From a virus (Duplodnaviria; Heunggongvirae; Uroviricota; Caudoviricetes), in IMG/VR virus record IMGVR_UViG_3300034106_001169: a stretch of DNA of 64,000 bases, one strand, 5' to 3'. Below the pieces are notes generated by a model. It searched no databases. It worked only from the letters and a program-made list of their open reading frames with translations, and had not been told where the DNA came from. Below are positions 1-51,114 of the stretch, piece by piece. The first letter of the stretch is position 1. Every line of letters begins with the position of its first letter. Both the position numbers and the translations under genes were made by a program.

Positions 1-998
1 TAGCTACAGGACTAATAACTATACCACCAAATGGATGGGGTGCTGTAGAAAGACTTATATGGGCTTACAAAGATAGACTAAGTAAGTTAGGTCATAATGT
101 AGAGGTTAAATATATGAATGAGCTAGAGAAATGGCCTGATACAATTGTACACGCTCACCTAGCTAATCAAGCTTTATATTGTAGAGATAAAGGTATACCT
201 TATGTGTACTCTCTACATGACCACCATACAGAATGGTATGGTAAAGATAGCTGGGTGTATAAGCAAAATCTAGAAGCTATGAAGCATAGCATTATATCCT
301 TTACACATGCTGAGTATTTGATTGAATACTTTAGTGAGACTGATAAGTTATTCTATCTACCACATGGTGCTGACACTGCATTCTTTACTCCTGACTATCC
401 TCCTAAGACACACTCTTTATTGATGATAGCTAATAATGGATTAGCAGGTGACAGTGGCTTTGATAGAAAAGGATTTAGATATGGTATAGAGGCAGCTGAA
501 GAGTTAGACCTACCTATCACTATAGCTGGACATCCTGACAACCAAAAGTTCTTTGACATCCATTCAGAGCTATTACAATACAAAAAGTTAACTTTAAAGT
601 TAACAAACCCTACAGATGATGAGACTAGAGATTTATATCAATCTCATAGTATATTCTTACATCCATCTATGCTAGAAGCAGGACATCCTAATCTAACATT
701 AATGGAAGCAACAGCATGTGGTATCCCTATTGTAGGAACTTATAAAGGTTCTAGACATATGGATGGTATGTGGGTCTTACCAAACATCAGTACAGATGCT
801 GTTATCAAAGGTGTTAAAGAAGTTATTAAAACTTATGACCATAGAAAGAATGAAGTGTTAGCTGCACGTGATAGTAGAGATTGGTTCCATGTGGCTAAGA
901 CTCTTGAGAAGTTCTACATTAATGTATTAAAGATTAATGAAGGATATACATCAGAAAGAACACAACAATTATACATAAACACATACAATAATTTATGA
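1..998 (+). CDS. Glycosyltransferase, GT4/GT-B-fold family, 5' partial (reading frame +3 is open from the window start; listed Met at 114 is internal)
   Basis: Translation upstream of 114 continues in frame without a stop (…ITIPPNGWGAVERLIWAYKDRLSKLGHNVEVKYMNE…). C-terminal half has the retaining-GT4 signature EAGHPNLTLMEATACGIPIVGT (E-x7-E-like). Stop overlaps the next start (ATGA). Confidence 0.7.
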   Translation, partial: ATGLITIPPNGWGAVERLIWAYKDRLSKLGHNVEVKYMNELEKWPDTIVHAHLANQALYCRDKGIPYVYSLHDHHTEWYGKDSWVYKQNLEAMKHSIISFTHAEYLIEYFSETDKLFYLPHGADTAFFTPDYPPKTHSLLMIANNGLAGDSGFDRKGFRYGIEAAEELDLPITIAGHPDNQKFFDIHSELLQYKKLTLKLTNPTDDETRDLYQSHSIFLHPSMLEAGHPNLTLMEATACGIPIVGTYKGSRHMDGMWVLPNISTDAVIKGVKEVIKTYDHRKNEVLAARDSRDWFHVAKTLEKFYINVLKINEGYTSERTQQLYINTYNNL

Positions 999-1576
999 GA
1001 CTAGAAGTTATTTCTATAGCAGATTTTTATAACAATGTAGATGAAGTGAGAAAGTTTGCTATGGAACAAGAGTATAGAGAAGAACCAGATCATTTTCCAG
1101 GAAGAAGAACAGTTCCATTCTTAAATGATAGTACAAAAGAAATTATTAAAGATGTATTAAGACCAATGTGTGGAGAAGTTACTTGGTGGGGAGGCAAAGA
1201 CTCTGGTTGTTTTCAATATACCACTGCTACTGACAGATCTTGGATTCATTCTGATGGAACAACAATGTGGGCAGGAGTTATCTATTTAACTCCTGATGCT
1301 CCATTATCAGCAGGCACTGGCATATTCAGACATAAATCAACAGGATTAAAAGGATGGATACATACAGAACACACTGATGAAGAAAATACTAATTGGTTAA
1401 ACAGTAATGAGAGTTATGATTATACAAAATGGGATATGGTAGATAAGATTGGTAATGTTTATAATAGACTTATTATGTATAGAGGTGACTTGTTCCATGT
1501 ATCTTTAGACTATTTTGGAAAAGATATAAATGATGGCAGATTATTTCAAACCTTCTTTTTAAACACAGAGAAATGA
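995..1576 (+). CDS. Hypothetical protein, possibly a cupin/2OG-oxygenase-like fold (HSD…H)
   Basis: 193 aa, translationally coupled to flanking genes. It has IHSDG and FRHKSTG, a candidate HxD…H metal triad with short spacing. No firm family assignment from sequence alone. Confidence 0.3.
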   Translation: MRLEVISIADFYNNVDEVRKFAMEQEYREEPDHFPGRRTVPFLNDSTKEIIKDVLRPMCGEVTWWGGKDSGCFQYTTATDRSWIHSDGTTMWAGVIYLTPDAPLSAGTGIFRHKSTGLKGWIHTEHTDEENTNWLNSNESYDYTKWDMVDKIGNVYNRLIMYRGDLFHVSLDYFGKDINDGRLFQTFFLNTEK

Positions 1577-2637
1577 TAACATATAAAATATTACATATCA
1601 ATGGTTTACACTTTGAACTAGTGGATGATGGGGGAAAAGGTAGAGAATACGATGTAAGCTTTGTAGATGGTAATACAACTATCTATGAAACTAAAATGAA
1701 GAAAGGTGGATGGTCTAGGCTTAATAGAAAGTATCTATCTAACATAGCCATATTTATTAAGTACCAAGGACGTATAGTGTTACAGATTAATCTATTAGAT
1801 GAACTAGTAGGTAAGAGAGTATTTATTGTCTTTGAGTCTAAGAGTCTTGGAGATAGTATAGCTTGGATGCCATACTGTTTAGCCTTTCAAGAGAAGTATA
1901 AGTGCCACGTTGTGGTGTCTTCTTTTAAGAATGAGTTATTTGAATCTGTATATCCTGAGCTAGAGTTTGTAGAAAGGGGAGTGGTGGTACATAATATAGT
2001 GGCTCAAGTAGAGCTTGGCTGGTTTTGGGAGAAAGATAAAGAGCCTACGCATCCTGCCACTATACCATTACAGCAAGCAGCTAGTAATGTATTAGCTCTA
2101 GAATTTGAAGAGATACAACCTAGGATAGCATTTACACCAGGAGAAAGACCAATAGATAGTAAGTACATATGTATATCTACTAGATCTACAGCACAGTGTA
2201 AGCATTGGTATTATTGGCCAGAGTTAATTCAGGCTCTAAAAGATATAGGATATAGAGTGATAGAACTATCACAGGAGGCAGATGACTTAGGAGCAGAGAA
2301 GCTAGAAGATAAGTCTCTTAATGTAGCTATGAACTATCTACATCATGCAGATATATTTGTTGGTTTATCTAGTGGTATCAGTTGGTTAAACTGGGGTATA
2401 GGTAAGAAGACAGTGATGATTAGTAACTTCACTACACCAGACCATGAGTTTCAATCTAACTGTATACGCATAGTTAATAAAGACGTATGCAATGGCTGTT
2501 GGAACAATCCTGTGTTCAAGTTTAATAAAGGGGATTGGAATTGGTGTCCTGAGCACGAAGATACACCTAGACATTTTGAATGTCACAAATCTATTAGTAT
2601 GACCACTGTATTAAACACAATAAAAGAAAACCTATGA
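1573..2637 (+). CDS. Protein O-glycosyltransferase of the autotransporter-adhesin heptosyltransferase family (TibC/Aah/BAHT-like)
   Basis: 354 aa. Blocks match TibC as I recall it: KRVFIVFESKSLGDSIAWMPYCLAF, SKYICISTRSTAQCKHWYYW, LKDIGYRVIELS and FVGLSSGISWLNWGIGKKTVMISNFTTPDHEF. The C-terminal Cys cluster CNGCWNN…WCPEHEDTPRHFECHK matches the Fe-binding Cys cluster in TibC. Confidence 0.55.
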   Translation: MITYKILHINGLHFELVDDGGKGREYDVSFVDGNTTIYETKMKKGGWSRLNRKYLSNIAIFIKYQGRIVLQINLLDELVGKRVFIVFESKSLGDSIAWMPYCLAFQEKYKCHVVVSSFKNELFESVYPELEFVERGVVVHNIVAQVELGWFWEKDKEPTHPATIPLQQAASNVLALEFEEIQPRIAFTPGERPIDSKYICISTRSTAQCKHWYYWPELIQALKDIGYRVIELSQEADDLGAEKLEDKSLNVAMNYLHHADIFVGLSSGISWLNWGIGKKTVMISNFTTPDHEFQSNCIRIVNKDVCNGCWNNPVFKFNKGDWNWCPEHEDTPRHFECHKSISMTTVLNTIKENL

Positions 2638-3278
2638 ACCAGCAAGAAAATATATTAACAATATTCCCAACTATAATTTATACTAACAAAATAAATAGGG
2701 AATTTACAAAAGATGAATTAAACTGTATATTAGGTTATTATGATAAAGCAAATGCTACAGCACATGATATTTTATCTACAGATATGAATGTTCTTGACAA
2801 TGAAAAGTTATCAGATATAAAAGCTTTTTGTCAAGAAATGTTAGATGATTTCTTCTTAAAAGTATACAACCCAATTAATCCAAACAATGTAAGATTAAAA
2901 CTTACACAGTCTTGGTTAAATTTTATATATGGTGATAGACACCATGAGAGTCACAAACACCATAATTCATTTATGAGTGGAGTAATTTATATCAATGCTT
3001 ATAAAGACAAAGATTCTATTATATTTACAAAACCAGATACTGATTTTAACTGGCACATACAACCTAAAGAGGCAACTAAATATAACTATAGCCATTCTCA
3101 TCATGCTGTTAACACAGGTGATATAATTATATTTCCAGCTAACTTGTATCATAGCACACCTGTAAACACTAACAACTACGTTAGAATTAGTCTAGCTTTT
3201 AGTTCTTTTTTAACAGGAACTATAGGTTATGTTGAAGGACCACTTACAGGTATTAACCAATTAAAACTAAATTTATGA
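2634..3278 (+). CDS. 2OG-Fe(II) oxygenase, PF13759/TIGR02466-like (paralog 1)
   Basis: TQSWLNFIYGDRHHESHKHHNSFMSGVIYIN … IIIFPANLYHSTPVNTNNYVRISLAFSS. This is the HxH…H plus RISxSFN pattern typical of the small phage and cyanobacterial 2OG oxygenase family. Confidence 0.65.
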   Translation: MNQQENILTIFPTIIYTNKINREFTKDELNCILGYYDKANATAHDILSTDMNVLDNEKLSDIKAFCQEMLDDFFLKVYNPINPNNVRLKLTQSWLNFIYGDRHHESHKHHNSFMSGVIYINAYKDKDSIIFTKPDTDFNWHIQPKEATKYNYSHSHHAVNTGDIIIFPANLYHSTPVNTNNYVRISLAFSSFLTGTIGYVEGPLTGINQLKLNL

Positions 3279-3901
3279 AACTAAATACACTTCAACTATT
3301 TCCAACTCCCTTGATGACATTTGGACTTGAAAGAGATTTTACAAAAGAGGAATTAGATTATGTACATAGTCAAGAAATGGGAATTAGTATTGGTAATGAA
3401 GGTTCTTATAATCATAGAGTACTAGAAAACCCTATTATGGCAAATCTTAAAAAGTTTGCACAAGATGCTTTAGATCAATATTTTGAGGAGATTTATTCAC
3501 CAGCAAGACCAGAAGAAGTAAGATTAAAACTAACTCAATCATGGACAAACGTAACAGAACCAGGTGAAAACCACCATATACATTATCATCCTAATAGTGT
3601 AATAAGTGGAGTTATTTATATTAATGCAGATATAAATGATGATGAAATTGTTTTTTCAAATGTAAAAGAAACGATATGGGAATTTGTAGTAAAGAATAAG
3701 AATGCATACAACTCTCGTCAATATCATCTTCCTGTTTCAACAGGATTTATGGTTTTGTTTCCATCACAAATGTTTCATGGAGTTCCAGAAACCAAAAGCA
3801 AAACTGCTAGAATAAGTTTAGCCTTTAACTCTTTCTTTGAAGGTAAGCTTGGTATTGAGAACGATGGTGTGAATTATTTAGAAATAAATAATACAGTGTA
3901 G
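3275..3901 (+). CDS. 2OG-Fe(II) oxygenase, PF13759/TIGR02466-like (paralog 2)
   Basis: TQSWTNVTEPGENHHIHYHPNSVISGVIYINAD … LFPSQMFHGVPETKSKTARISLAFNSF. Same architecture as 2634..3278; tandem duplicate. Confidence 0.65.
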   Translation: MKLNTLQLFPTPLMTFGLERDFTKEELDYVHSQEMGISIGNEGSYNHRVLENPIMANLKKFAQDALDQYFEEIYSPARPEEVRLKLTQSWTNVTEPGENHHIHYHPNSVISGVIYINADINDDEIVFSNVKETIWEFVVKNKNAYNSRQYHLPVSTGFMVLFPSQMFHGVPETKSKTARISLAFNSFFEGKLGIENDGVNYLEINNTV

Positions 3902-4714
3902 CTATTTGTTATATTTGAAATACTTAAAGAACCAATCATAGTTTTTATATACCCAATCACATGCAGGCCTACCTATAATTTGTTCAGCTTGTGATTCCTT
4001 TTTCTTAACTACATTTCTAATCTCATGACTTGCAAAATAGAATATATCATTCTCTTTTGTAGTTTGTTCTATGTTATTAAAATCATGTTGGAAGTATGGT
4101 ATTTCTAAGTAGTTATAAACCCTAGCCATCTCTCTATTAGGATCTTCGCAAAAGTCTTCATACTTAATAAACAATATTTTAGAGTCAAGTCTAAAGTTAA
4201 TAATATCTTTGACAGCATCAAATACAACACCAATAGGATTTGTTTTACTCCAATCTATTATTCTCTTTTCCATTGTTGTATTCTTCAAATCAGACCAACT
4301 TATTAATGGATTTATTGTCAATGGATTTCTTCTATAGTTAGATTCAAAGGACGCAAATACATCTCTTGGGTCTCTAATCATACTTACAATCTTAGGATCT
4401 TTTCCATTAATACTTTTTAATAAATCAAAGTTCATTCCCCAATAGAAACTCTTATCTACAAAATAAGGCTTATCTGAAATTGAATTAGCATATCCTTTTA
4501 TTCCTTCTCTACAGAAAGACAATACAGCCTTTTCCATAACGTTAACATCTTGAGCTTTGAACTCAGCTAATATGAACTTTTCCTTTATTGACTGCAAGAA
4601 TTCAACCACACCACTTGTAGGAGTGGCATACATATCAGGATTTTGATTAAATACATTTTGTAATAATGTGCTTCCAGATCTGGGCAAGCTGCTATTATAA
4701 AATATCTCTTGCAT
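3902..4714 (-). CDS. Sulfotransferase (PAPS-dependent family)
   Basis: N-terminal LPRSGSTLL (5'-phosphosulfate-binding P-loop-like PKSGTT motif) and IVSMIRDPRDVFAS (3'-phosphate-binding RDPRD motif). Its stop abuts the stop of the convergent + strand gene at 3901. Confidence 0.65.
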   Translation of the reverse strand: MQEIFYNSSLPRSGSTLLQNVFNQNPDMYATPTSGVVEFLQSIKEKFILAEFKAQDVNVMEKAVLSFCREGIKGYANSISDKPYFVDKSFYWGMNFDLLKSINGKDPKIVSMIRDPRDVFASFESNYRRNPLTINPLISWSDLKNTTMEKRIIDWSKTNPIGVVFDAVKDIINFRLDSKILFIKYEDFCEDPNREMARVYNYLEIPYFQHDFNNIEQTTKENDIFYFASHEIRNVVKKKESQAEQIIGRPACDWVYKNYDWFFKYFKYNK

Positions 4715-5235
4715 TATATTGTTGTTGGTTTTGATGTATTAAAAGTTAAACTCATCTTTAAATCATTTCCTACATTCTTTGGTTCATAATATAATAAATG
4801 AGATGGGAATAATAATAAGTCACCTCTTTTTACACTAATTGTTTCTTTAACTTCTGGAAAAACAATTGTATGAAAGTTTGCACTAGCATTAACATAGAGT
4901 ATGCCAGTTATTAAACTGTTAGGATGATTGTGAGATTGATGCTCTTCGCTTGGCATTGTAAAATTTAGCCAAGACTCTGTAATGTAAATGTTAGCATCAT
5001 TAATGTATTTGTTTAAAGAACTTAAACAAAAAGATTTAATATCAATTAGTTCAGATTTGTCTAATACAGTTATGCATTTAGTTTTTGAATTTCCTAAATC
5101 TGATTCAATGTTTGCAATATTTTGAGTATAGCCAACAAAAATATCCTTCTCTTCCCTTGTAAACTTTCTATCTAAGCTAAGCTTAGAAATAAGAGACTGC
5201 ATATATTCTATTTGTAGTGTTCTCCTCCCACCCAT
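4714..5235 (-). CDS. 2OG-Fe(II) oxygenase, PF13759/TIGR02466-like (paralog 3)
   Basis: TESWLNFTMPSEEHQSHNHPNSLITGILYVNAS … LLFPSHLLYYEP … LKMSLTFNTS. Listed start overlaps the upstream gene by 28 nt; the internal Met (MQSLISK, about 5202) is a likelier start. Confidence 0.6.
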   Translation of the reverse strand: MGGRRTLQIEYMQSLISKLSLDRKFTREEKDIFVGYTQNIANIESDLGNSKTKCITVLDKSELIDIKSFCLSSLNKYINDANIYITESWLNFTMPSEEHQSHNHPNSLITGILYVNASANFHTIVFPEVKETISVKRGDLLLFPSHLLYYEPKNVGNDLKMSLTFNTSKPTTI

Positions 5236-5804
5236 AGTACGAAAGAACGTCTAGTTCCTTTAGTTACTTTGGTAACTCTGTGCATCATATAAGAAGGGAA
5301 TATAAATACAACACCTTTACCTCTTGGTGCTTTACTAGCTTTTTCAGGATCTCCTCCTCTAAAGTATTCTAAATCACCACCTTCATATTCATCAGAATCA
5401 GATAGTTGTACAGTAATACTTATCTTTCTTTTGGACATTTCATCTGGACCAATATCTTGGTGCCATGCATAATGTCCTCCTTTATCAGCATAATATTCTG
5501 TGTATTGAATATGATCTATTAAACTATGTAAATCAAAATGCCAAATTGCATTATTGGCTTCTATAACCATGTTCATTAGCTTTTCATAAAGCCATCCCCA
5601 TTGTTCATTTGGTGGAATCCATTTAATAGAAGATGATCTAATGTCTAAATTTTCTTCATCATTTCCTATAATTGCTTTTTGAAATGGAATTATTGCAACT
5701 CCATTATAAATTTTGTCTAGTTCTTCTGTAGAAAATCCTTGATTAAAGAAATAATAATTTTGTGAGTCACAAGTGTGCTTTGGAAAAACAATAGAGGTGT
5801 TCAT
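5208..5804 (-). CDS. Prolyl-4-hydroxylase-like 2OG-Fe(II) oxygenase (PF13640-type)
   Basis: HYAWHQDIGPD (HxD), MMHRVTKV (distal His) and GTRRSFVLWV (RxS 2-oxoglutarate-binding motif) in the order and spacing typical of P4H/PhyH-type enzymes. Confidence 0.7.
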   Translation of the reverse strand: MNTSIVFPKHTCDSQNYYFFNQGFSTEELDKIYNGVAIIPFQKAIIGNDEENLDIRSSSIKWIPPNEQWGWLYEKLMNMVIEANNAIWHFDLHSLIDHIQYTEYYADKGGHYAWHQDIGPDEMSKRKISITVQLSDSDEYEGGDLEYFRGGDPEKASKAPRGKGVVFIFPSYMMHRVTKVTKGTRRSFVLWVGGEHYK

Positions 5805-5829
5805 TATTTAAATTTTAGATAGAACAAAG

Positions 5830-6897
5830 TTAAGCATTATTTTCTAATATCTGCAACTTTTCATCTAATTCTTGTATAGCTTTCATTAAAATACCTAAAC
5901 TAGAAGGTATAACTATTTGATCATGAGCACTAGTAGCTAACTCTTCTCGTGTTTCTTCAGCAATAAAACCTATATGTGTTTCACCTTGAAGATCAGCATC
6001 TTCAAATTCAAAAGATATAATATCTGTATCATTAATTATTTCTAATGCAGATTTAGCAAATGGCTCAATGTTTTTCTTAATTTCTCTAGTAGAGGCTGGG
6101 AAGAAGTTACCCCCTCCTGCACCAATGCCTCCATTACTATACCATTGAGAAGATGAGTTATTATAGAAATAAACTGAACCATTTATACACCCCCTAACAC
6201 CTCCAAAATTATTCATGTTGTTAGCCATGTAAACTTGTCCACTAACATAAATAGAATTGAATGTAGGATTATCACCATAGTTTAGTGATTGACCATTTGT
6301 ATTTGAAGGACCTTGTGGACCTGTAGGGCCTGTTGGGCCTGTAGGACTAGCACCAGCAGGTCCTGTAGCACCTGCAGCTCCTTGTGGACCTTGTGGTCCT
6401 GTTCCACCATTAACACCACTAGTACCTGATGAACCTCTAGGTCCTAATGCACCTTGTGGACCAGTAAGACCTTGTGGTCCTTGTGGACCTGTGGGACCAT
6501 TGGCACCAGCTAGACCAGAGTTACCACTCGAAGCAGATAAGCCAGAGCTTCCACTTGTAGCAGCTACACCTGAAGAACCACTTGAGCCTGATGTACCTGC
6601 AGAACCTGATTCTGCAGATAATACTGAAGCACCACTAGTTCCTGCAGAGCCACTTGTTCCAGAGGTTCCAGAGGTTCCTGATGTTCCATATGCTCCTGTT
6701 AATTCAACAGTCCAAGAATTAAATGTTCCTGAACCATTTGATTCTAAAGGAGTTATAATTAATGTACCTGTGCTAGGATTATATGACACTACTCTTCCAA
6801 TAACATAATTGGTAGAGTTAGCACTAACTTGTACAAAATCATTTGTTACAAATGAAAGATTTGTAGTTACAGTGAATGTCAAATTTGAATAAGGCAT
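5830..6897 (-). CDS. Collagen-like triple-helix tail fibre with C-terminal intramolecular chaperone (peptidase S74-like) domain
   Basis: N-terminal module [10 protein letters not shown]…SWTVELTG. Gly-X-Y repeats run for about 165 residues (GTSGTSG…[16 protein letters not shown]…). C-terminus is [12 protein letters not shown]…IGFIAEE…[13 protein letters not shown], with the Ser…Lys dyad and layout of endosialidase-type self-cleaving chaperone domains. Confidence 0.8.
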
Positions 6898-7272: not shown

Positions 7273-8328
7273 CTATTTATTTTGTAAGTTTTTAATTTTC
7301 TCATCTAGCTCTTGAATTGCTTTCATAGCTACACAAATTGTGGAAGGAATAACCATTTCATCATGATCTGAAGAAGACATCTCAATAGGAGTTTCTTCAG
7401 CAATAAATCCTATTTTAACTAAATCTGTATAATGTGTTTCGCCTTCATATTTAAATGAAACAATTTCTGTTTGGTTAATTAGATCAAGTCCAGATTTAAT
7501 AAATGGTTCTATGTTCTTTTTAGCTTCTCTTGTAGATGTACCAAAGAAATAAGCAGAACCAATTGAGCCATAAGAAAACCAATTTGAACCATTACCATAC
7601 CAACTTACACCTTGGTTTGCACTATTAGAAACTTTTGGACATATATAATTACCTCCAGCATTTGATTGCGTCATAGCCATTCCACCAAAGTTTACATTAG
7701 CACCTGTAGTTAATCCTTGGTTATAAACTGTTTGAGGTCCTTGTCCTCCTGGAGCTCCTGTTGGTCCTGTATTGCCTGGATTTGCTGGTCCTTGTGGGCC
7801 TGTTGGACCTTGAGGACCTTGTGGTCCTGTGGCACCTGTTGGTCCATTATTCCTAGAAAGACCTGATGTTCCTGAAGAACCTGTGGCACCTGTTGGTCCT
7901 TGTACACCTTGAGGGCCTGTTGGTCCAATAGCACCTGATGTGCCTGCTGAACCTGACGTGCCTGCAGTGGCACTAGAACCAGATGTACCAGCTGTTCCAC
8001 TTGATCTACTTAAACCATCAGAGCCTGATGTTCCAGAAGTACCAGAACTTCCAGCATCACCAGATGTAGCACTTGTTCCACTAGAGCCTGATGTTCCTGA
8101 TGTTCCATTTGTTCCAGATGAACCAGCATTGCCTGTTAATTGAACGTTCCATATTGAATATGATCCACTACCTACAGATTTAACTGGGGTGATTACCATA
8201 ACACCTGTTACATCACTATACGAAACCACTGTACCAATAACGTAGTTATCTGCATCATAGCTTAGTTGCACAAAGTCTCCTGCTACATAGCTTAGTCTAG
8301 GTGAACAATTAAAAGTTGCGTTAGGCAT
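7273..8328 (-). CDS. Collagen-like tail fibre with C-terminal S74-like intramolecular chaperone domain
   Basis: MPNATFN…SIWNVQLTG N-module, long Gly-X-Y run (GTSGSSG…GPTGPQGVQGPTGATG…), C-terminal TSTREAKKNIEPF…[11 protein letters not shown]…ELDEKIKNLQNK. Confidence 0.8.
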   Translation of the reverse strand: MPNATFNCSPRLSYVAGDFVQLSYDADNYVIGTVVSYSDVTGVMVITPVKSVGSGSYSIWNVQLTGNAGSSGTNGTSGTSGSSGTSATSGDAGSSGTSGTSGSDGLSRSSGTAGTSGSSATAGTSGSAGTSGAIGPTGPQGVQGPTGATGSSGTSGLSRNNGPTGATGPQGPQGPTGPQGPANPGNTGPTGAPGGQGPQTVYNQGLTTGANVNFGGMAMTQSNAGGNYICPKVSNSANQGVSWYGNGSNWFSYGSIGSAYFFGTSTREAKKNIEPFIKSGLDLINQTEIVSFKYEGETHYTDLVKIGFIAEETPIEMSSSDHDEMVIPSTICVAMKAIQELDEKIKNLQNK

Positions 8329-9322
8329 TGTTATTTTTATTTTGTAGAGCTGTTACTCTATTATCAATTTCTTGAATTGCTTTTAATACAACTGCTAATG
8401 TATTAGTTGTATCCATTACGTTATGATCTGGAGTTGCTAATTCTTCTGGAGTATCTTCTGCTATGAATCCAATATGTTCAATTTGTGTATGTTCTCCACT
8501 TTCAAAATCCCAAGTGACTATTTCTGTGCTCTTTATAATTTCTGTAGCATCTTTAGTGAATGGTTCAATTTCTTTTTTCATACTTCTTGTAGAAGAGTTA
8601 AAGAAAAATGCACCACCTAAGCCAGCATTACTTGCCCAACCAAAGTTAAATCCAAACCATACAGGACCATATGTACCTGCAATTCCTTTATATGCATCAC
8701 CAGGCATATAAAATCTATAAGCAGTTTGCCAAGTTGTGGTTGAAGTTGGATATGTAAATGTTACATCTCCTCCAACATTAAGGTTTTGGTTATAGCTAGC
8801 TGATGTACCTGTAGGTCCTTGTGGTCCTGTTGCACCAGTTGGACCTTTAGGTCCTTGAGGTCCTTGAGGTCCTGTAGGACCTGTAGGTCCTGGGGCTCCT
8901 GTTGGACCTGTAGCTCCAGCTGAACCTGATGTTCCACTAGAACCACCTACTCCTGTTGGACCTTGTGCTCCTACAGCACCCTGAGGACCTGTACCACCTT
9001 GTACAGCACTTGTTCCTGAGGAACCAGATGTACCAGATGTTCCTGAAGACCCTGAGCTTGCTGACGTACCAGCTGAGCCTGAAGTTCCAGATGATCCTGA
9101 AGTTGCAGATGTACCATGTGTACCTGAGCTTGCTGAAGAACCACTAGTACCACTTGTGCCAGAACTAGCAGATGCACCAGAGGTTCCATTCTTACCAGCC
9201 AATTCAACGTTCCATGTATTGTATGATCCTGCATCACCTGTGTATTCAAGTGGGGTTACCACTAAACTACCAGTGACATCATCATAACTTACAACTCTTC
9301 CATGTATAAATGCATTAGCCAT
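8321..9322 (-). CDS. Collagen-like tail fibre with C-terminal S74-like intramolecular chaperone domain
   Basis: VVSYDDVTGSLVVTP…TWNVELAG N-module, Gly-X-Y run, C-terminal SSTRSMKKEIEPF…IGFIAEDTPEE…EIDNRVTALQNK. Overlaps the upstream gene by 8 nt. Confidence 0.75.
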   Translation of the reverse strand: MANAFIHGRVVSYDDVTGSLVVTPLEYTGDAGSYNTWNVELAGKNGTSGASASSGTSGTSGSSASSGTHGTSATSGSSGTSGSAGTSASSGSSGTSGTSGSSGTSAVQGGTGPQGAVGAQGPTGVGGSSGTSGSAGATGPTGAPGPTGPTGPQGPQGPKGPTGATGPQGPTGTSASYNQNLNVGGDVTFTYPTSTTTWQTAYRFYMPGDAYKGIAGTYGPVWFGFNFGWASNAGLGGAFFFNSSTRSMKKEIEPFTKDATEIIKSTEIVTWDFESGEHTQIEHIGFIAEDTPEELATPDHNVMDTTNTLAVVLKAIQEIDNRVTALQNKNNNA

Positions 9323-9732: not shown

Positions 9733-11334
9733 TTATGTTAAAGGTAAGGTTTGTGTTGTTCCTGAAGTTCCATTATATGTTGATGAATCACCAGAGGTTG
9801 CTGCAGTTCCTGAAGAAGCTGAAGTACCTGATGTTCCACTTGATCCACTAGAAGCACTTGTACCTGAACTACCATCTGTTCCATTAGTTCCACTTGATCC
9901 AGATGTAGCTGAGCTACCACTAGTTCCTGATGAGCCATCAGTTCCAGAACTACCACTCGATGCTGAAGTACCTGAAGTACCACTCACACCAATGAAGTTG
10001 AAATAGAATGCATCGTTAGCACTAGGATCTGGACCACCACTAGCAAGTTGTGTTACAGTGTAATCTTCATAGCCTGATACAAAAGGTGTATTACTTACAA
10101 TTCTTAAAAACTTATAAGTTGCAACATTACTTGAGCTTTGTAATTTAATAATTGAGTTTGCTCCAATAAAGTTTAAATATGTAGAGAAGTTTACATTTGG
10201 ATTGTATGCAGTGTCACTGATGGCAATATTTGTTACAGTTTCACTCCAAGAGTTAATATCTAATCTAAAGAATGTACTACCTGGGTTTACAGATGTGTCA
10301 GGATTTATACTATATAACCACTCTGCTAAGAATCCATCAGCACCTTGGTTACCACTTGTACCAGCTGAAGCTGATGTTCCTGAACTAGCACTTGTTCCAG
10401 ACGTACCACTTGACCCATCTGTTCCTGACGTACCTGTAGTACCACTAGAGCCATCTGTTCCAGATGTTCCACTTGACGCAGATGTACCAGACGTACCATT
10501 AGTTCCAGACGTTCCAGAAGAACCATCTGTACCTGAAGTACCATCACCTCCTGCAGCTCCTGCAAGGTTTACTTCCCAAACAGCAAATGTACCAGATCCA
10601 TTAAATGAATCTATAGTTAATACCATAGCACCTGTTGCTGAATTATAAGAAGTAACAAAACCAATCATGTCGAAGCCTACAGAGTAAGCAACAACCACAC
10701 CTTGACCAATTGTATATGCCAGTCCTAAACCAACAGTTAAATTTTGAGTGCCAACAGCTAATGTTAAACTAGTAGTAGATGTAGTCTTATATAAGTCACC
10801 AGAGTTACCAGATGTAGCTGCAGTTCCTGAGCTTCCACTTGTGCCACTACTTCCATCAGTTCCACTTGTTCCACTAGATCCATCAGTGCCACTAGTGCCT
10901 GAGCTTCCATCAGTACCTGTAGTTCCAGACGTACCAGAACTTCCATCAGTGCCTGATGTACCAGAGCTACCATCTGTACCACTTGTTCCAGAGGTTCCAC
11001 TAGACCCATCAGTTCCACTAGTTCCTGATGAACCAGAGGTACCAGAAGATCCATCTGTTCCAGAAGATCCATCAGTACCAGTTGTTCCACTTGTACCACT
11101 TGTTCCACCTGTTCCACTAGAACCTGAGACAGCAGATGCTACGACAGTCCATGTATTGAATGTACCAGCACCTAAGTAATTGGTAGGATAGAAAACAAAG
11201 ATTCCTGTTACAGGATCATATGTAACCACTTGACCAAAGATGTAGTTGTTCTCATCATGTATCACTTGGACATATTGTCCAGGATAGAATGATCTACCAG
11301 TTTCAATGGTTATGGTAATATTAGCGTAAGGCAT
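9733..11334 (-). CDS. Collagen-like fibre protein (two Gly-X-Y segments, each preceded by a copy of the about 55 aa N-module; no S74 domain)
   Basis: MPYANITITI…NTWTVV, then GSSGTGGTSG…(GTDGSSGTSG)n. A second module, LAYTIGQGVVVAYS…VTSYNSATGAMVL…AVWEVNLAG, is followed by more Gly-X-Y. C-terminal region is non-collagenous and Ser/Thr-rich. Confidence 0.75.
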   Translation of the reverse strand: MPYANITITIETGRSFYPGQYVQVIHDENNYIFGQVVTYDPVTGIFVFYPTNYLGAGTFNTWTVVASAVSGSSGTGGTSGTSGTTGTDGSSGTDGSSGTSGSSGTSGTDGSSGTSGTSGTDGSSGTSGTDGSSGTSGTTGTDGSSGTSGTDGSSGTSGTDGSSGTSGSSGTAATSGNSGDLYKTTSTTSLTLAVGTQNLTVGLGLAYTIGQGVVVAYSVGFDMIGFVTSYNSATGAMVLTIDSFNGSGTFAVWEVNLAGAAGGDGTSGTDGSSGTSGTNGTSGTSASSGTSGTDGSSGTTGTSGTDGSSGTSGTSASSGTSASAGTSGNQGADGFLAEWLYSINPDTSVNPGSTFFRLDINSWSETVTNIAISDTAYNPNVNFSTYLNFIGANSIIKLQSSSNVATYKFLRIVSNTPFVSGYEDYTVTQLASGGPDPSANDAFYFNFIGVSGTSGTSASSGSSGTDGSSGTSGSSATSGSSGTNGTDGSSGTSASSGSSGTSGTSASSGTAATSGDSSTYNGTSGTTQTLPLT

Positions 11335-11360: not shown

Positions 11361-13148
11361 TTAACAAGCTACACAACTACCTGTGAATGTCATTAATGTT
11401 ATTCCTGCACCTGGAACTTTGTAAACTTGTCTAAAATTAGTTCCATCAGAAACATAAGATGTACCTCCACTTAAAGGGTCAACATCAGGGGAATCAAAAG
11501 AGGTTGAATCACAAAGACCTGTTCCACCATTATAAGTAACTGATGTTAATATAAAGAAAGGTCCAGATTGTGTACAAGCATTAGGACCACTAATTGAAGA
11601 AAAAATCAATGTTGGACCTGGAGCAGCTGTTGTTGTAGTAGATGTTGTACTTGTTGTTGTAGCTTCAGCAGGAGGAATAGTAATTGTACTACCACTTGTA
11701 CCAGCCATCAATGTAGAAATACCTGATGTTGCTGCTGTACCACTAGAACCATCTGTACCTGTAGTTCCTGAAGTTCCACTAGATCCATCTGTACCACTGC
11801 TACCATCTGTTCCTGTTGTGCCTGATGTACCTGAAGAACCATCAGTTCCACTTGTTCCAGTTGTTCCAGAGCTTCCATCAGAACCTGATGTACCTGAAGT
11901 CCCACTTGAACCATCTGTTCCTGTAGTACCACTAGATCCTGATGTACCAGAAGATCCATCTGTGCCACTTGTTCCTGTTGTACCACTTGTACCATTTGAT
12001 CCATCTGTACCACTAGTTCCAGAAGAACCAGATGTTCCAGAAGATCCTGATGTTCCACTAGAGCCATCAGTTCCAGAACTGCCACTTGTACCTGAAGAAG
12101 CTGAAGTTCCAGAAGAACCATCAGTTCCTGTTGTACCAGATGAGCCATCTGTACCAGTTGTACCTGAAGTACCTGTAGATCCTGAAGTACCTGTAGTACC
12201 ACTAGTTCCACTTGAACCTGATGTACCACTTGAACCTGCACCACCTGTGGCACCATTCAAGTTAATTTGCCATGAGCTATATGTTCCACCACCTATTATT
12301 ATTGTAGGAGCATCAAAATTAAGTGCACCTGTAGCACTGTTATAAGAAATTACATTACACTCTTGATAGTTGTTAATATCATGAGCAATAATAATTGCTT
12401 GACCAACAGTGTAAGCTAAACCAAGACTCACTTGTAAAGTACCAGCATTACCTAATGTGAATGTTTGTACTGAGAAGGTTGCATATCTATCACCTGTAAA
12501 ACCTGAAGATCCAGATGTACCAGCTGAACCTGAAACACCACCAGAACCACTTGAGCCTGATGTACCAGCACTGCCAGAAGTTCCTGTAGAACCTGACGTA
12601 CCACTAGAGGCAGATGAACCAGAAGTTCCTGCACTACCATCTGTACCAGCAGATCCAGATGTACCAGAAGAGCCAGAGGAAGCAGATGTTCCAGAAGAAC
12701 CTGAGGTACCATGAGAACCAGTTGTACCACTTGTGCCACTTGTACCATGAGAACCAGAAGTACCTGATGAACCTGCTGTACCAGCTGTACCATTTCTACC
12801 ACTAGACCCAGAACTACCTGAAGTGCCAGCTGTACCATTCCTTCCAGAACTACCAGAGGTAGCAGAAGTTCCACTTCTACCAGAAGAACCAGATGTTGCT
12901 GAGGTACCATTAGTACCACTTATTCCATTGGTTCCTGAAACTCCACTAGTTCCATTTCTTCCAGAAGAGCCACTAGTACCAGACGTACCATAGCCAGCTG
13001 ATGCAAAAGCTGCATCAATCTTCTCTAATGCTGTTTGTAAATTGTCGTTGGTATTTATACCAGAGTATACAAGATAGGGGCCTTCGTAGAATACGCAGGT
13101 CGAATCCAATATAACTGGACATGGGGTTGCAGAGCAAGTAACGTTCAT
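11361..13148 (-). CDS. Collagen-like fibre protein with Cys-rich N-terminus and C-terminal Thr-rich/Cys domain
   Basis: MNVTCSATPCPV… N-terminus, Gly-X-Y runs ([13 protein letters not shown]…), internal module LAYTVGQAIIIAHD…VISYNSATGALNF…SSWQINLNG, more Gly-X-Y, then TTSTTSTTTT and a Cys-containing C-terminus. Confidence 0.75.
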   Translation of the reverse strand: MNVTCSATPCPVILDSTCVFYEGPYLVYSGINTNDNLQTALEKIDAAFASAGYGTSGTSGSSGRNGTSGVSGTNGISGTNGTSATSGSSGRSGTSATSGSSGRNGTAGTSGSSGSSGRNGTAGTAGSSGTSGSHGTSGTSGTTGSHGTSGSSGTSASSGSSGTSGSAGTDGSAGTSGSSASSGTSGSTGTSGSAGTSGSSGSGGVSGSAGTSGSSGFTGDRYATFSVQTFTLGNAGTLQVSLGLAYTVGQAIIIAHDINNYQECNVISYNSATGALNFDAPTIIIGGGTYSSWQINLNGATGGAGSSGTSGSSGTSGTTGTSGSTGTSGTTGTDGSSGTTGTDGSSGTSASSGTSGSSGTDGSSGTSGSSGTSGSSGTSGTDGSNGTSGTTGTSGTDGSSGTSGSSGTTGTDGSSGTSGTSGSDGSSGTTGTSGTDGSSGTSGTTGTDGSSGTDGSSGTSGTTGTDGSSGTAATSGISTLMAGTSGSTITIPPAEATTTSTTSTTTTAAPGPTLIFSSISGPNACTQSGPFFILTSVTYNGGTGLCDSTSFDSPDVDPLSGGTSYVSDGTNFRQVYKVPGAGITLMTFTGSCVAC

Positions 13149-49495: not shown

Positions 49496-51114
49496 TATTT
49501 ATTTAATTTAGCTTCTAACTCAGCAATACGTTTTTCTAGTTGAGCAATCTTCCAGCTATGTACTTGTGTATAATCCACTACTAAGAAACCATCATCTTTT
49601 ACTTCTATAGCATCAGGAAGAAACTGTTGTACTTGTTGTGCTATGTATCCCCAGTGTTGTTTAGTATCTCTTTCTGGATTATTCCAAGCATACATTACAG
49701 TTTCTATATTTTCTGATTGAATAGCACCTAAAACAGTTTTAAGTCTTAAGTCAGAGTTTTGGAAGAAAGAGTCTGCATATATTGAATTACCACTTACATA
49801 TACACTTGAGTTTGTAAATCCAGAGTTTGCGTTAGTACATATAACTATTGCTCCTGCAGTTGCTGGAGAGATAGTTGTAAATCCAGGACCAGTTGGGCCA
49901 GTAGGGCCAGTTGCTCCTTGGGGACCTTGGGCACCTTGAGGACCAGTAGGACCAGGTCCTCCTGTTGCTCCTTGAGGTCCTGTAGCTCCCTGTGGTCCAG
50001 TTGGACCAGGACCTCCTGTTAAACCTTGTGGTCCAGTAGCTCCTTGTGGACCTTGAGGGCCAGTGGGACCAGCAGCACCAGAAGTACCAGCTGTTCCTGT
50101 TGCACCACTAGAGCCAGTAGCTCCAGATGTGCCAGCTGTTCCTGTACTAGTTCCTGCTGTAGCTGATGTACCAGAACTAGCTGATGTACCTGCTGTACCT
50201 GATGTACCTGCTGGTCCAATAGAACCAGAAGTACCACTTGTACCATTACCACCAGCAGCTCCAAATAAGTTTACAGTCCAAGCTGCATATATTCCTGAAC
50301 CTGTTGTTGCTATTATATTAACAACCATAGCACCTGTAAGACTATCATAGCTTGTAACAGTGCCTTCCATTGTATTAGAACCATCATATGCCAAAAGTAT
50401 TGTTTGAGCAACACTATAAGCTAATCCTGTACCAGTAGTTAAAGTTTGAGTACCATTTCCTATTGTTAAAGATGTGACAGAAGATGATAGGTATCTATCT
50501 CCATCTAAACCAGCTGTACCAGAAGTACCTGCTGGTCCTATTGAACCTGACGTTCCTGCTGTTCCTGCTGGTCCTATTGAGCCTGACGTACCAGACGTAC
50601 CCATTGTACCATCTGCAGCAGATGTACCTGAACTTCCTGAACTTCCAGAAAGACCAGAAGAAGCAGATGTACCATTAGTTCCAGAAAGACCAGCAGAACC
50701 TGATGTACCATTAGAACCTTCTCTACCAGAACTTCCAGATGTTCCACTAGAACCAGTGTCACCACTTGTACCAGATGAACCAGCAGCACCACTAGCACCT
50801 GAGCTACCTGAAGTGCCAGATGAACCACCAGGTCCTGTAGCACCTGAACTTCCAGATGTACCAGCAGTGCCTGTAAGACCACTAGAACCAGAAGTTCCAG
50901 AAGTACCATTAATACCAACAACACCATTGCAAAGAGCGTCATCTATTTTTGATAGAGCACAGTCTAAGTTATCTCCAGTGTGAATTCCTGAACAAGGAAG
51001 GTTTGGTCCATTATATATAACATTACCTGCTGTGGTTGCACAAGGAAGTGAACTACAGTTTTGGTTAGGATGATAGTAAGCATTGTAACAAGGATCTCCA
51101 GGATTGCAAGCCAT
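49495..51114 (-). CDS. Collagen-like tail fibre with C-terminal S74-like intramolecular chaperone domain
   Basis: Cys-rich N-terminus [14 protein letters not shown]…, Gly-X-Y runs including [28 protein letters not shown]…, internal [14 protein letters not shown]…[13 protein letters not shown]…AAWTVNLFG module, C-terminal [14 protein letters not shown]… (SDxRxK signature) and ELEAKLNK. Confidence 0.75.

What the first reader, a model, noticed from the sequence alone, without database searches (positions are those of the whole stretch)
1573..2637. Phage-encoded homolog of bacterial autotransporter-adhesin O-heptosyltransferases (TibC/Aah/BAHT) with the Fe-binding Cys cluster
Several long blocks resemble TibC as I remember it (SLGD…W.PY, C[IV][AS]T[QR]ST.Q.K.W, GYRV, G[LI][SP]SG[LI]SWL.W), including the distinctive C-terminal CxxCW…WCP.H….ECH cysteine cluster that coordinates iron in TibC. 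This family is so far mostly described in enterobacterial adhesin loci. Here it sits in a phage of an apparently Bacteroidota-like host, with no autotransporter nearby but many Ser/Thr-rich repetitive fibres.
Basis: partly seen in the sequence, partly recalled or inferred. Interest (0 to 1): 0.75.

Follow-up and report, generated by a model that had tools for sequence, protein, structure and literature searches.

The report
Phage TibC-like protein glycosyltransferase, thumb-less variant
A crAss-like phage carries a true relative of the bacterial TibC/Aah adhesin-glycosylating enzymes, from a little-known branch that lacks the ring-forming "thumb" and sits next to collagen-like Gly-Ser/Thr repeat proteins, here the phage's own tail fibres, so the phage probably sugar-coats its fibres.

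Summary
ORF 1573-2637 (+, 354 aa) is a clear TibC/Aah homologue. It matches TibC in the PDB at E=5e-43. It scores 250 bits on TIGR04414 (cutoff 200). Its AlphaFold model superposes on TibC with TM 0.80. The catalytic Asp, the Thr/Lys/Trp donor-site residues and all four iron-finger cysteines are conserved.

It is not a canonical autotransporter heptosyltransferase:
- The beta-hairpin thumb that builds the TibC dodecamer is deleted.
- The adenine-contacting Arg286 is Ala.
- It falls outside the canonical clade.
- No autotransporter is present.

Across 80 bacterial loci, canonical enzymes (thumb plus Arg) sit beside AIDA-type autotransporters and never beside (Gly-Ser/Thr-Ser/Thr)n proteins (0/57). 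Short-thumb and thumb-less enzymes sit beside such collagen-like repeat proteins in 16/23 loci (Fisher p=9e-12), and so do 28/40 thumb-less viral loci.

In this window the gene lies in a five-gene plus-strand operon with a GT4 enzyme, DUF6445 and two 2OG oxygenases. This operon abuts a sulfotransferase, a prolyl-hydroxylase-like oxygenase and five collagen-like fibre genes.

Best reading, partly inferred: cytoplasmic O-glycosylation of the fibres' Gly-Thr-Ser tracts. The donor sugar is unknown. I rate it a new variant of a known kind, of moderate to high interest.

The parts
1573..2637 (+). TibC/Aah-like iron-finger glycosyltransferase (354 aa), thumb-less class
   Evidence: TibC E=5e-43; TIGR04414 250 bits (cutoff 200); AF2 pLDDT 84.8; Foldseek to TibC TMq 0.80.
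1573..1797 (+). N-terminal flattened beta-barrel domain (about aa 1-75), equivalent to TibC residues 1-97
   Evidence: The AF2 model has seven strands between aa 3 and 73 at pLDDT above 90. The Foldseek alignment to TibC spans about 375 columns. The domain is described in PMC4358343.
1852..1854 (+). Codon of Asp94, equivalent to the TibC catalytic base Asp110
   Evidence: Invariant in 152/152 family domains.
2188..2202 (+). Thr206...Lys210, equivalent to TibC Thr226 and Lys230 (beta-phosphate contacts)
2281..2286 (+). Site (Asp237/Asp238) where the 10 residues of the TibC beta-hairpin thumb (TibC 261-270, including Phe265 and Val266) are missing
   Evidence: The AF2 model shows no hairpin between strand 228-231 and helix 249-258.
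2326..2328 (+). Codon of Ala252, at the position of the TibC adenine-contacting Arg286
   Evidence: Arg occupies this position in almost all canonical class I domains and is replaced in the phage clade.
2368..2385 (+). Ser266 (position of TibC Pro300 / AAH Ser294, the heptose stereoselectivity determinant) and Trp271 (TibC Trp305, heptose O4 contact)
2488..2583 (+). Iron-finger region Cys306, Cys309, Cys325, Cys337 (TibC Cys339/342/358/370)
   Evidence: The four Cys are present in 148-149 of 152 family domains. The AF2 model is low-confidence here (aa 307-336). The metal was not tested.
1..998 (+). GT4/GT1-family glycosyltransferase, cut by the window's left edge (the ATG at 114 is internal); first gene seen of the + strand operon
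   Evidence: It is 51% identical over 330 aa to the N-terminal half of a 701-aa GT4+TibC-like fusion protein in L031.
995..1576 (+). DUF6445 protein; its stop overlaps the TibC-like start
   Evidence: Syntenic in related phages.
2634..3278 (+). 2OG-Fe(II) oxygenase (PF13759/TIGR02466); its start overlaps the TibC-like stop
3275..3901 (+). Second 2OG-Fe(II) oxygenase (PF13759/TIGR02466); last gene of the + strand operon
3902..4714 (-). Sulfotransferase
   Evidence: PF00685, E=5.7e-18. An APS-kinase-like gene accompanies it in relative L001.
4714..5235 (-). 2OG-Fe(II) oxygenase-like protein (PF13759)
5208..5804 (-). Prolyl-4-hydroxylase/PKHD-type 2OG-Fe(II) oxygenase (PF13640), next to the fibre genes
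   Evidence: A homologue lies next to the TibC-like gene in about 22 of 44 viral loci.
5830..6897 (-). Collagen-like fibre with GTS/GSS and GPX triplets and a C-terminal Peptidase_S74 chaperone domain; candidate acceptor
7273..8328 (-). Collagen-like fibre; candidate acceptor
8321..9322 (-). Collagen-like fibre with Peptidase_S74 domain; candidate acceptor
9733..11334 (-). Collagen-like fibre, 38% Ser+Thr, 52 GXY triplets, mostly G-T/S-S/D; candidate acceptor
11361..13148 (-). Collagen-like fibre, 42% Ser+Thr, 106 GXY triplets, with (G[ST][ST]) runs of 9 and 6; candidate acceptor
49495..51114 (-). Sixth collagen-like fibre (80 GXY triplets) in the tail module; candidate acceptor

Best explanation
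ORF 1573-2637 encodes an active cytoplasmic GT-B protein O-glycosyltransferase of the TibC/Aah (BAHT, GT9-like) superfamily. It belongs to a thumb-less branch that is not tied to autotransporters. It is expressed from a translationally coupled operon with a GT4 enzyme, DUF6445 and two 2OG oxygenases. I propose that it transfers a sugar from a nucleotide-sugar onto Ser/Thr hydroxyls in the (Gly-Ser/Thr-Ser/Thr)n collagen-like tracts of the phage's own fibre proteins, before or during fibre assembly in the infected cell. By family precedent the donor would be ADP-heptose, but this is unverified because the adenine-reading Arg is lost. The neighbouring GT4, and the GT1 and GT9 enzymes seen just upstream in related phages, would extend the glycan. 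The sulfotransferase would decorate it. The P4H-like oxygenase may hydroxylate the Gly-Pro-X tracts. Without the thumb, the enzyme should not form the TibC dodecameric ring and may work as an iron-finger-mediated dimer or a monomer. Shown here: homology, fold, conserved catalytic and Cys residues, the thumb deletion, Arg->Ala, operon structure, and the statistical association with the repeat proteins. Inferred: the acceptor, the donor, the oligomeric state and the roles of the neighbouring enzymes.
For: Homology and fold. Residue mapping onto the published TibC functional residues. Family-wide conservation: Asp110 and Trp305 equivalents in 152/152 domains, Lys in 150/152, four Cys in 148-149/152. 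More than 120 close relatives at 71-94% identity keep these residues, so the gene is under selection. Classes defined by thumb length: class I (29 residues, Arg in almost all) forms a pure NJ clade and sits beside PF03797/PF16168 autotransporters, with 0/57 loci having a (G[ST][ST])>=5 ORF within 6 kb. Classes II and III have one in 16/23 bacterial loci, mostly 70-1000 bp away, Fisher p=9e-12. The bacterial partners are exported proteins with tracts such as (GTS)39 and (GTS/GTT)50, in otherwise unrelated housekeeping neighbourhoods. Among thumb-less viral loci, 28/40 have such an ORF within 6 kb, as does Microcystis phage Mel-JY01. The window has six fibres with the same tracts, the nearest 3.2 kb away. 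Fusions of GT4 with the TibC-like domain link the two adjacent window genes functionally. The closest isolate, Lbo-JY46, has neither the enzyme nor any such repeat in 125 kb. Phage-encoded enzymes glycosylating virion proteins have a precedent (Freeman 2023, PMC10527164, cited).
Against: No biochemical data exist, so the acceptor rests on guilt by association. In phages, glycosyltransferase islands often sit beside fibre genes in hypervariable regions for other proposed reasons. Several phage lineages carrying the enzyme show no repeat protein within 10 kb: L041-L044, L046, and the megaphages LR756501 and LR756504. The loci within each class are partly related by descent, so the Fisher p-value overstates independence. 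No ADP-heptose pathway gene was found near the gene in any lineage examined. The iron-finger region is modelled with low confidence.
Confidence: 0.55

Rival explanations
1. The enzyme is part of a host-surface remodelling island. It and the neighbouring glycosyltransferases and sulfotransferase modify the host's LPS, capsule or surface glycans during infection, for example to block superinfection, rather than modifying phage proteins.
For: Glycosyltransferase clusters beside tail-fibre genes in aquatic phages have been interpreted this way (PMC7029224). The fold is GT9-like, and the next-best structural hits are the LPS heptosyltransferases WaaC and WaaF. Relatives also carry a plain GT9 gene, carbamoyltransferase, methyltransferases and sugar-nucleotide enzymes typical of polysaccharide loci.
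Against: The characterised members of this family, TibC and AAH, glycosylate protein serines. The N-terminal barrel and the iron finger, implicated in binding the protein substrate, are retained. In bacteria the non-canonical enzymes sit in minimal cassettes with an exported repeat protein and no polysaccharide genes.
Confidence: 0.15
2. It glycosylates some other protein, phage or host: for example the capsid, a giant virion protein, the T9SS-signal protein at 46994-47920, or a host surface protein. On this reading its proximity to the fibre genes is incidental.
For: In mycobacteriophages the glycosylated targets are capsid and tail-tube subunits. Some phage lineages with the enzyme lack a nearby repeat protein. 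The window contains several large proteins with no detectable domains.
Against: The specific, repeated pairing with (G-S/T-S/T)n proteins in unrelated bacteria and in several phage lineages. No other conserved candidate neighbour emerged.
Confidence: 0.15
3. It is a canonical BAHT that heptosylates an AIDA/TibA-type autotransporter of the host using ADP-heptose, as a ring dodecamer.
For: It scores above the TIGR04414 equivalog cutoff, and sources label relatives as 'autotransporter strand-loop-strand O-heptosyltransferase'.
Against: The thumb is deleted, Arg286 is Ala, and the protein lies outside the canonical clade. No autotransporter is present in the window or in the related loci examined. 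The canonical enzymes are the ones adjacent to autotransporters.
Confidence: 0.05
4. The island hypermodifies phage DNA: the 2OG oxygenases hydroxylate bases and the glycosyltransferases glycosylate them.
For: Several 2OG-Fe(II) oxygenases and glycosyltransferases are clustered. Virus-encoded glycosyltransferases that hypermodify DNA are known (Pyle 2024, cited).
Against: The oxygenases belong to PF13759/TIGR02466 and PF13640 (P4H type), not to the TET/JBP family. TibC-family enzymes are protein glycosyltransferases. The bacterial cassettes pair the enzyme with exported proteins.
Confidence: 0.04

Closest known systems
TibC (ETEC) and AAH (DAEC): bacterial autotransporter heptosyltransferases (BAHT), PDB 4RAP/4RB4
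   Same: 33% identity over about 300 residues. Same domain order: N-terminal beta-barrel, atypical GT-B core, Cys4 iron finger. Same catalytic Asp and the same Thr/Lys/Trp donor contacts. The position equivalent to AAH Ser294 is Ser.
   Different: The 10-residue beta-hairpin thumb needed for the dodecamer is absent. The adenine-contacting Arg286 is Ala. The protein lies outside the canonical clade. It is encoded by a phage with no autotransporter partner, and its neighbours are collagen-like fibres and other glycan enzymes.
LPS heptosyltransferases WaaC and WaaF (CAZy GT9, Pfam PF01075)
   Same: GT-B fold. Weak Pfam GT9 match at 24.3 bits against a cutoff of 22. Foldseek TM about 0.5.
   Different: They have no N-terminal barrel and no Cys4 finger, and they act on lipid-linked oligosaccharide rather than protein.
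Uncharacterised short-thumb or thumb-less TibC-like genes paired with exported (GTS)n, (GSS)n or (GTT)n proteins in Methylococcales, Arenicellales, Acidiferrobacterales, Burkholderiales and Pseudobdellovibrionaceae MAGs
   Same: Short or absent thumb. The same kind of repeat protein lies next door. The catalytic and Cys residues are conserved.
   Different: Only 35-38% identical to the phage protein. They are single enzymes without the accompanying GT4/GT1/sulfotransferase island. Some retain the Arg. I found no published characterisation.
Phage multidomain TibC-like fusion proteins: Microcystis phage Mel-JY01 1226-aa 'FkbM methyltransferase', megaphage LR756501 725-aa protein, UniProt A0A6J5SVC1 'Glycosyltransferase Aah/TibC', A0A7S9XE01 of Virus NIOZ-UU157
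   Same: The same TibC-like domain at 33-45% identity, in phages, combined with GT4/GT1 domains.
   Different: In those phages the domains are fused into one polypeptide, sometimes with an FkbM methyltransferase. Here they are separate, overlapping genes.
Mycobacteriophage virion glycosylation (Freeman et al. 2023, PMC10527164)
   Same: Phage-encoded glycosyltransferases that modify the phage's own structural proteins (cited).
   Different: A different glycosyltransferase family, different targets (C-termini of capsid and tail tube), and a Gram-positive-type host.
Glycosylated collagen-like proteins: Bacillus anthracis BclA and Mimivirus collagen hydroxylase/glycosyltransferase L230 (from my own knowledge, not checked here)
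   Same: Collagen-like GXY tracts rich in Thr that carry O-glycans. In Mimivirus a hydroxylase and a glycosyltransferase act together on viral collagen, which resembles the pairing here of a P4H-like oxygenase with a glycosyltransferase next to collagen-like genes.
   Different: Unrelated enzymes. The parallel is functional only.

Membership tests
BAHT / TIGR04414 (TibC, AAH) | Sequence score above the curated family cutoff | tested here: met
   250.3 bits against a cutoff of 200, E=2.9e-74, near full-length. TibC PDB E=5e-43.
BAHT / TIGR04414 (TibC, AAH) | Protomer architecture: N-terminal beta-barrel plus GT-B catalytic core | tested here: met
   AF2 model pLDDT 84.8 with strands at aa 3-73. 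Foldseek TMq 0.80 to 4rap over about 375 columns.
BAHT / TIGR04414 (TibC, AAH) | Catalytic base Asp110 | tested here: met
   Asp94 aligns with it. Invariant in 152/152 relatives.
BAHT / TIGR04414 (TibC, AAH) | Donor contacts Thr226, Lys230 and Trp305 | tested here: met
   Thr206, Lys210 and Trp271.
BAHT / TIGR04414 (TibC, AAH) | Arg286 contacting adenine N1 (basis of ADP specificity) | tested here: not met
   Ala252 in the query. Arg in almost all class I domains, and variable (T/V/I/A/L) outside that class.
BAHT / TIGR04414 (TibC, AAH) | Cys4 iron finger (Cys339/342/358/370) | tested here: met
   Cys306/309/325/337 align. The identity of the metal cannot be tested here, and the AF2 model is low-confidence in this region.
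   A 10-residue deletion removes TibC 261-270. The thumb region is 18 residues against 29 in TibC. No hairpin appears in the model.
BAHT / TIGR04414 (TibC, AAH) | Ring-shaped dodecamer | not testable with these tools
   Only the absence of the thumb can be shown. This needs SEC-MALS or cryo-EM.
BAHT / TIGR04414 (TibC, AAH) | Gene adjacent to an AIDA/TibA-type autotransporter substrate | tested here: not met
   No PF03797 or PF16168 match in any window protein scanned. Control class I loci do have these domains next door.
BAHT / TIGR04414 (TibC, AAH) | Placement within the clade of characterised enzymes | tested here: not met
   In an NJ tree on identity distances, class I forms a pure clade of 63 of its 67 members and the query lies outside it. 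Query identity to class I is 30-38%. The tree is rough.
BAHT / TIGR04414 (TibC, AAH) | Heptosyltransferase activity with ADP-heptose on protein Ser | not testable with these tools
   No heptose pathway genes were found near the gene in the lineages examined. An enzyme assay is needed.
CAZy GT9 / Pfam PF01075 | Match to the GT9 profile and GT-B fold | tested here: met
   24.3 bits against a cutoff of 22. WaaC and WaaF are the next structural hits at TM about 0.5.
Proposed thumb-less or short-thumb TibC-like branch (not a curated family) | Short thumb region together with a neighbouring (Gly-Ser/Thr-Ser/Thr)n repeat protein | tested here: met
   The query's thumb region is 18 residues. Fibres with such tracts lie at 5830-13148. 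The branch-wide association is 16/23 bacterial and 28/40 viral loci, against 0/57 for class I.
crAss-like (Crassvirales-related) phage, as genomic context | crAss-type TerL, portal, MCP, muzzle and tail ring proteins | tested here: met
   phrog_6681, phrog_6547 and phrog_11589. PF25731 crAss_MUZ. PF24228 and PF25702 ring proteins. TerL matches Cellulophaga and crAss phages at 29-35%.

The most novel reading that the evidence does not exclude
Thumb-less and short-thumb TibC-like enzymes form an undescribed family of cytoplasmic O-glycosyltransferases dedicated to collagen-like (Gly-Ser/Thr-Ser/Thr)n tracts in bacteria and phages. In this abundant crAss-like lineage the enzyme primes a phage-encoded fibre-maturation pathway. 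In that pathway a prolyl-hydroxylase-like oxygenase, the priming glycosyltransferase, the extending GT4/GT1/GT9 enzymes and a sulfotransferase together give the virion sulfated, glycosylated, proteoglycan-like collagen fibres.
Probability: 0.3. Interest if true: 0.8.

Novelty: new variant of a known kind. Interest (0 to 1): 0.6.

Why it matters
BAHT enzymes are known only as virulence-associated modifiers of autotransporter adhesins that work as iron-containing dodecamers. This gene shows three things.
- The same catalytic and iron-finger scaffold exists without the ring-forming thumb.
- It is widespread in environmental phages and bacteria.
- It is paired with a quite different kind of partner, simple collagen-like Gly-Ser/Thr repeats.

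If confirmed, the result would extend protein O-glycosylation by this family to phage tail fibres. That bears on host recognition, particle stability and immune visibility of crAss-like phages. It would also offer a compact enzyme-plus-tag pair, the glycosyltransferase with a (GTS)n tract, for cytoplasmic glycoengineering.

It also flags an annotation problem. The TIGR04414 'equivalog' name, 'autotransporter strand-loop-strand O-heptosyltransferase', is being applied to proteins that have no autotransporter partner.

Tried and rejected
- Megablast of the first 20 kb against phage records found only short collagen-repeat matches, so no close relative is known.
- PHROGs has no family for the protein.
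- The promoter and terminator scan of 1-6000 found no more sites than shuffled sequence, so it says nothing about transcription.
- No tRNAs are in the window, so they give no host clue.
- Literature searches for the NCBIfam product name, for TibC with bacteriophage, for heptosyltransferase with collagen-like, and for BAHT homologues found no paper on phage or non-autotransporter members. Hits for 'TibC' were mostly the unrelated abbreviation TIBC.
- I looked for ADP-heptose pathway genes near the gene in Mel-JY01, L031, L040, L044 and L048. I found only a weak cytidylyltransferase-like match, a GalE-like epimerase, a PseC-type aminotransferase, a NeuD-type acetyltransferase and a NodU-like carbamoyltransferase. 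The donor therefore remains open.
- I tested whether the roughly 885-aa GT1 protein of the crAss-like lineage is the same as the N-terminal part of the Mel-JY01 fusion. Similarity is only weak (E=2e-5 over 130 aa), so I do not claim orthology.
- I rejected the canonical autotransporter reading and the DNA-modification reading, for the reasons given under rival explanations.
- I did not use the second structure job. No multimer prediction is available, so the oligomeric state could not be tested.
Full report
**Observation**

The window has an ATG-to-stop ORF at exactly 1573-2637 on the + strand, encoding 354 aa. The next hit is noise at E about 0.8. NCBIfam TIGR04414 'hepto_Aah_TibC' scores 250.3 bits against a curated cutoff of 200, over model positions 30-373 of 374. 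Pfam sees only a marginal GT9 match of 24.3 bits. An AlphaFold2 model built on 54 sequences has mean pLDDT 84.8 and pTM 0.84. By Foldseek it superposes on TibC chains with TMq 0.80. The next hits are the LPS heptosyltransferases WaaF and WaaC at TM about 0.5.

**Functional residues**

I took the residues that define TibC function from the structure paper (PMC4358343) and mapped them through the alignment.

| TibC feature | TibC residue(s) | Query | Status |
|---|---|---|---|
| Catalytic base | Asp110 | Asp94 | conserved |
| Beta-phosphate contacts | Thr226, Lys230 | Thr206, Lys210 | conserved |
| Heptose O4 contact | Trp305 | Trp271 | conserved |
| Iron ligands | Cys339/342/358/370 | Cys306/309/325/337 | conserved |
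| Stereoselectivity position | Pro300 (AAH has Ser294) | Ser266 | AAH-like |
| Adenine N1 contact, explaining ADP rather than GDP specificity | Arg286 | Ala252 | not conserved |

The model shows no hairpin between strand 228-231 and helix 249-258. The iron-finger stretch (aa 307-336) is the only low-confidence part of the model.

**The genome**

The window is a phage, and a crAss-like one. PHROGs identify a large terminase, portal and major head protein. Pfam finds the crAss muzzle protein at 37192-42870 and crAss tail ring proteins 1 and 2. TerL is closest to Leptolyngbya phage Lbo-JY46 (38%), then to Cellulophaga phages phi17:2 and phi4:1 (35%) and to crAss phages (about 30%). The capsid protein matches only Lbo-JY46. 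There is no near-identical known phage.

The host is not established. A Bacteroidota-specific type IX secretion CHU_C domain in ORF 46994-47920 and the crAss-like tail genes favour Bacteroidota. The nearest isolate infects a cyanobacterium.

**Local context**

The genes at <1-998 (GT4, cut by the window edge), 995-1576 (DUF6445), 1573-2637 (TibC-like), 2634-3278 and 3275-3901 (two PF13759 2OG oxygenases) overlap start-to-stop on the + strand. They look like one operon. Every other gene-sized ORF in the window is on the - strand.

Converging on this operon are a sulfotransferase, another 2OG oxygenase and a prolyl-4-hydroxylase/PKHD-type oxygenase. Next come five collagen-like fibre genes (5830-13148), two of them with Peptidase_S74 chaperone domains. 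A sixth collagen-like fibre lies at 49495-51114. Their GXY triplets are dominated by X=Thr/Ser/Pro and Y=Ser/Thr/Gln/Asp. The two largest fibres are 38-42% Ser+Thr. No autotransporter domain occurs in any window protein scanned.

**Distribution**

The protein is common in metagenomes.
- 1112 proteins match at E<=1e-10. The best 120 are 71-94% identical and come from contigs of up to 116 kb. JGI already labels many of them with the NCBIfam product name.
- In the library clustered at 50% identity, 1346 clusters match and 653 do so at E<=1e-30. Most of the best 150 are multidomain proteins (median 765 aa) with the TibC-like domain at the C-terminus.
- At least 584 loci occur in reference genomes and MAGs of Bradyrhizobium, Paraburkholderia, Reyranella, Methylococcales, Negativicutes and others.
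- Among deposited phages only Microcystis phage Mel-JY01 and three megaphage assemblies have it. BFVD holds two viral UniProt entries with it, one auto-named 'Glycosyltransferase Aah/TibC'.

I found no paper that discusses phage or non-autotransporter members.

**Three structural classes with different partners**

I aligned 134 domains from the fetched loci with TibC. The thumb region (TibC 252-280) falls into three length classes.

| Class | Thumb-region length | Residue at the Arg286 position | Typical neighbour |
|---|---|---|---|
| I | 29 residues, as in TibC | Arg in almost all | 1300-2600-aa proteins, confirmed as AIDA-type autotransporters |
| II | 25-26 residues | Val, Ile, Met or Thr | (G[ST][ST])n repeat proteins |
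| III, includes the query | 17-20 residues | Ala, Val or Thr in the phage clade; Arg in one gammaproteobacterial group | (G[ST][ST])n repeat proteins |

Class I forms a pure clade in a rough NJ tree (63 of its 67 members) and the query lies outside it. The class I neighbours carry PF03797 and PF16168.

The frequency of an ORF with (G[ST][ST])>=5 within 6 kb is as follows.
- Class I genome loci: 0/57.
- Class II genome loci: 10/13.
- Class III genome loci: 6/10.
- Classes II and III together against class I: Fisher p=9e-12.
- Thumb-less viral loci: 28/40, plus Mel-JY01.

In bacteria the repeat ORF is usually only 70-1000 bp from the enzyme gene. The partners are exported proteins such as these:
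- a 293-aa signal-peptide protein with (GTS)39;
- lipoproteins with (GSS)n tracts;
- a 534-aa protein with (GTS)/(GTT)50.

The genes around these pairs are unrelated housekeeping genes, or a DUF6502 gene. The window's fibres carry the same kind of tract. The closest isolate, Lbo-JY46, has neither the enzyme nor a single such repeat in 125 kb.

**Links to the neighbouring enzymes**

The crAss-like lineage keeps a conserved order: GT9 (about 315 aa), a roughly 885-aa GT1-domain protein, variable small genes, GT4, often DUF6445, and then the TibC-like gene. Convergent collagen-like fibres usually follow. A P4H-like oxygenase lies next to the TibC-like gene in about half of the loci.

In other phage lineages GT4 and the TibC-like domain are fused.
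- The 701-aa protein of L031 is 51% identical to the window's GT4 over its N-terminal 330 residues.
- A 699-aa fusion occurs in L040 and a 725-aa fusion in megaphage LR756501.
- Further fusions combine the domain with a GT1 domain (959 aa in L044, 957 aa in L051, 1226 aa in Mel-JY01) or with an FkbM methyltransferase (916 aa in L041).

These fusions argue that the adjacent enzymes act on one product. Neighbours elsewhere include GT2 and GT34-like transferases, NodU-type carbamoyltransferase, PseC-type aminotransferase, NeuD-type acetyltransferase and a GalE-like epimerase. So the glycans are probably elaborate. No heptose pathway gene was seen.

**Mechanism**

Shown here:
- A conserved, selected gene for a TibC-fold glycosyltransferase with an intact catalytic centre and Cys4 finger.
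- Loss of the thumb and of the adenine-reading Arg.
- Operon linkage to other glycan enzymes.
- A strong, lineage-spanning association of this branch with (Gly-Ser/Thr-Ser/Thr)n proteins rather than autotransporters.

Inferred:
- The enzyme O-glycosylates Ser/Thr in the fibres' repeat tracts in the cytoplasm, as BAHTs do to autotransporters before export.
- It is not a dodecamer.
- The donor may be ADP-heptose by precedent, but nucleotide specificity may be relaxed or changed.
- The neighbouring transferases extend the glycan, the sulfotransferase decorates it, and the P4H-like oxygenase may hydroxylate the Gly-Pro-X tracts.

I put this reading at about 0.55.

**Limits**

- The evidence for the acceptor is associative.
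- Several phage lineages with the enzyme have no repeat protein within 10 kb.
- Loci within a class are partly related by descent.
- Phage glycosyltransferase islands sit next to fibre genes for reasons others have attributed to host-surface modification.

**Rivals**

- Host LPS or capsule remodelling (0.15).
- Another protein target (0.15).
- Canonical autotransporter heptosylation (0.05).
- DNA hypermodification (0.04); the oxygenases are not of the TET/JBP type.

**Verdict**

The added value is that this is not a canonical BAHT. It is a thumb-less variant from a large uncharacterised branch whose likely substrates are collagen-like repeat proteins, here the phage's own fibres. I rate it a new variant of a known kind, with interest 0.6.

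Noticed in passing
window 46994-47920 (-): A 308-aa phage protein carries a CHU_C type IX secretion signal domain (PF13585, 33 bits, cutoff 27) at its C-terminus. T9SS is specific to Bacteroidota, so this is a host clue. It also raises the question of whether a phage protein is exported through the host T9SS.
   Followed up: partly
window 13301-18307 (-), 18307-29274 (-), 29274-32060 (-), 32137-35010 (-): Four very large ORFs (1668, 3655, 928 and 957 aa) lie between the fibres and the muzzle gene and have no Pfam match at all. By position they may correspond to the giant virion or cargo proteins of crAss-like phages, but this was not tested.
   Followed up: partly
window 44985-46235 (-): An SbcD/Mre11-like DNA repair exonuclease (phrog_704, E=2e-42) is embedded in the tail and structural module, between the ring-protein genes and the fibre genes.
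   Followed up: no
window 6491-6808 (+), 7710-8000 (-), 7940-8143 (+), 10202-11179, 11708-12919, 50063-50983: Many ORFs of 90-180 aa lie on the opposite strand or in other frames inside the collagen-like repeat genes, with products such as [10 protein letters not shown]. They are most likely frame artefacts of the GGN-rich repeats, which also explain the GC bumps at 8-14 kb and 50-52 kb.
   Followed up: partly
window 995-1576 (+): The DUF6445 protein in the glycosyltransferase operon matches phrog_1644, which PHROGs labels 'minor coat protein'. That label looks doubtful for a gene sitting among modification enzymes.
   Followed up: no
L002 (Microcystis phage Mel-JY01, PP395634.1) 4750-8430: The CDS annotated 'methyltransferase FkbM' (1226 aa) is really a multidomain protein with an N-terminal GT1 domain and a C-terminal TibC-like domain, including the TibC N-terminal barrel. 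A (G[ST][ST])10 ORF lies 724 bp away.
   Followed up: partly
L058 7063-7947, L059 7132-7956, L062 7033-7875: In gammaproteobacterial MAGs the thumb-less TibC-like gene is always preceded by a DUF6502 gene of about 280 aa and followed by a (GSS)n lipoprotein. This is a conserved three-gene cassette of unknown function.
   Followed up: partly
L048 and L051 (MAG contigs labelled 'uncultured Bacteroides sp.'): These contigs carry the same phage glycosyltransferase island plus collagen-like fibres. They look like phage contigs binned into bacterial MAGs, which is a weak host hint or a binning artefact.
   Followed up: partly
L001 1489-3144 and L048 892-1335: Related phages encode an APS-kinase-like protein next to the sulfotransferase. 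This suggests that the phage supplies its own PAPS for sulfation. The equivalent region lies upstream of this window's left edge.
   Followed up: no
L130 (LR756501.1, 735-kb megaphage) 5299-11086: The megaphage carries the same pair: a 1140-aa GT1-like protein with the N-terminal 'TPHLSTGG.PQ' motif, followed by a 725-aa GT4+TibC-like fusion. No collagen-like gene lies within 10 kb. The GT1-like partner recurs in nearly every phage lineage that has the enzyme.
   Followed up: partly
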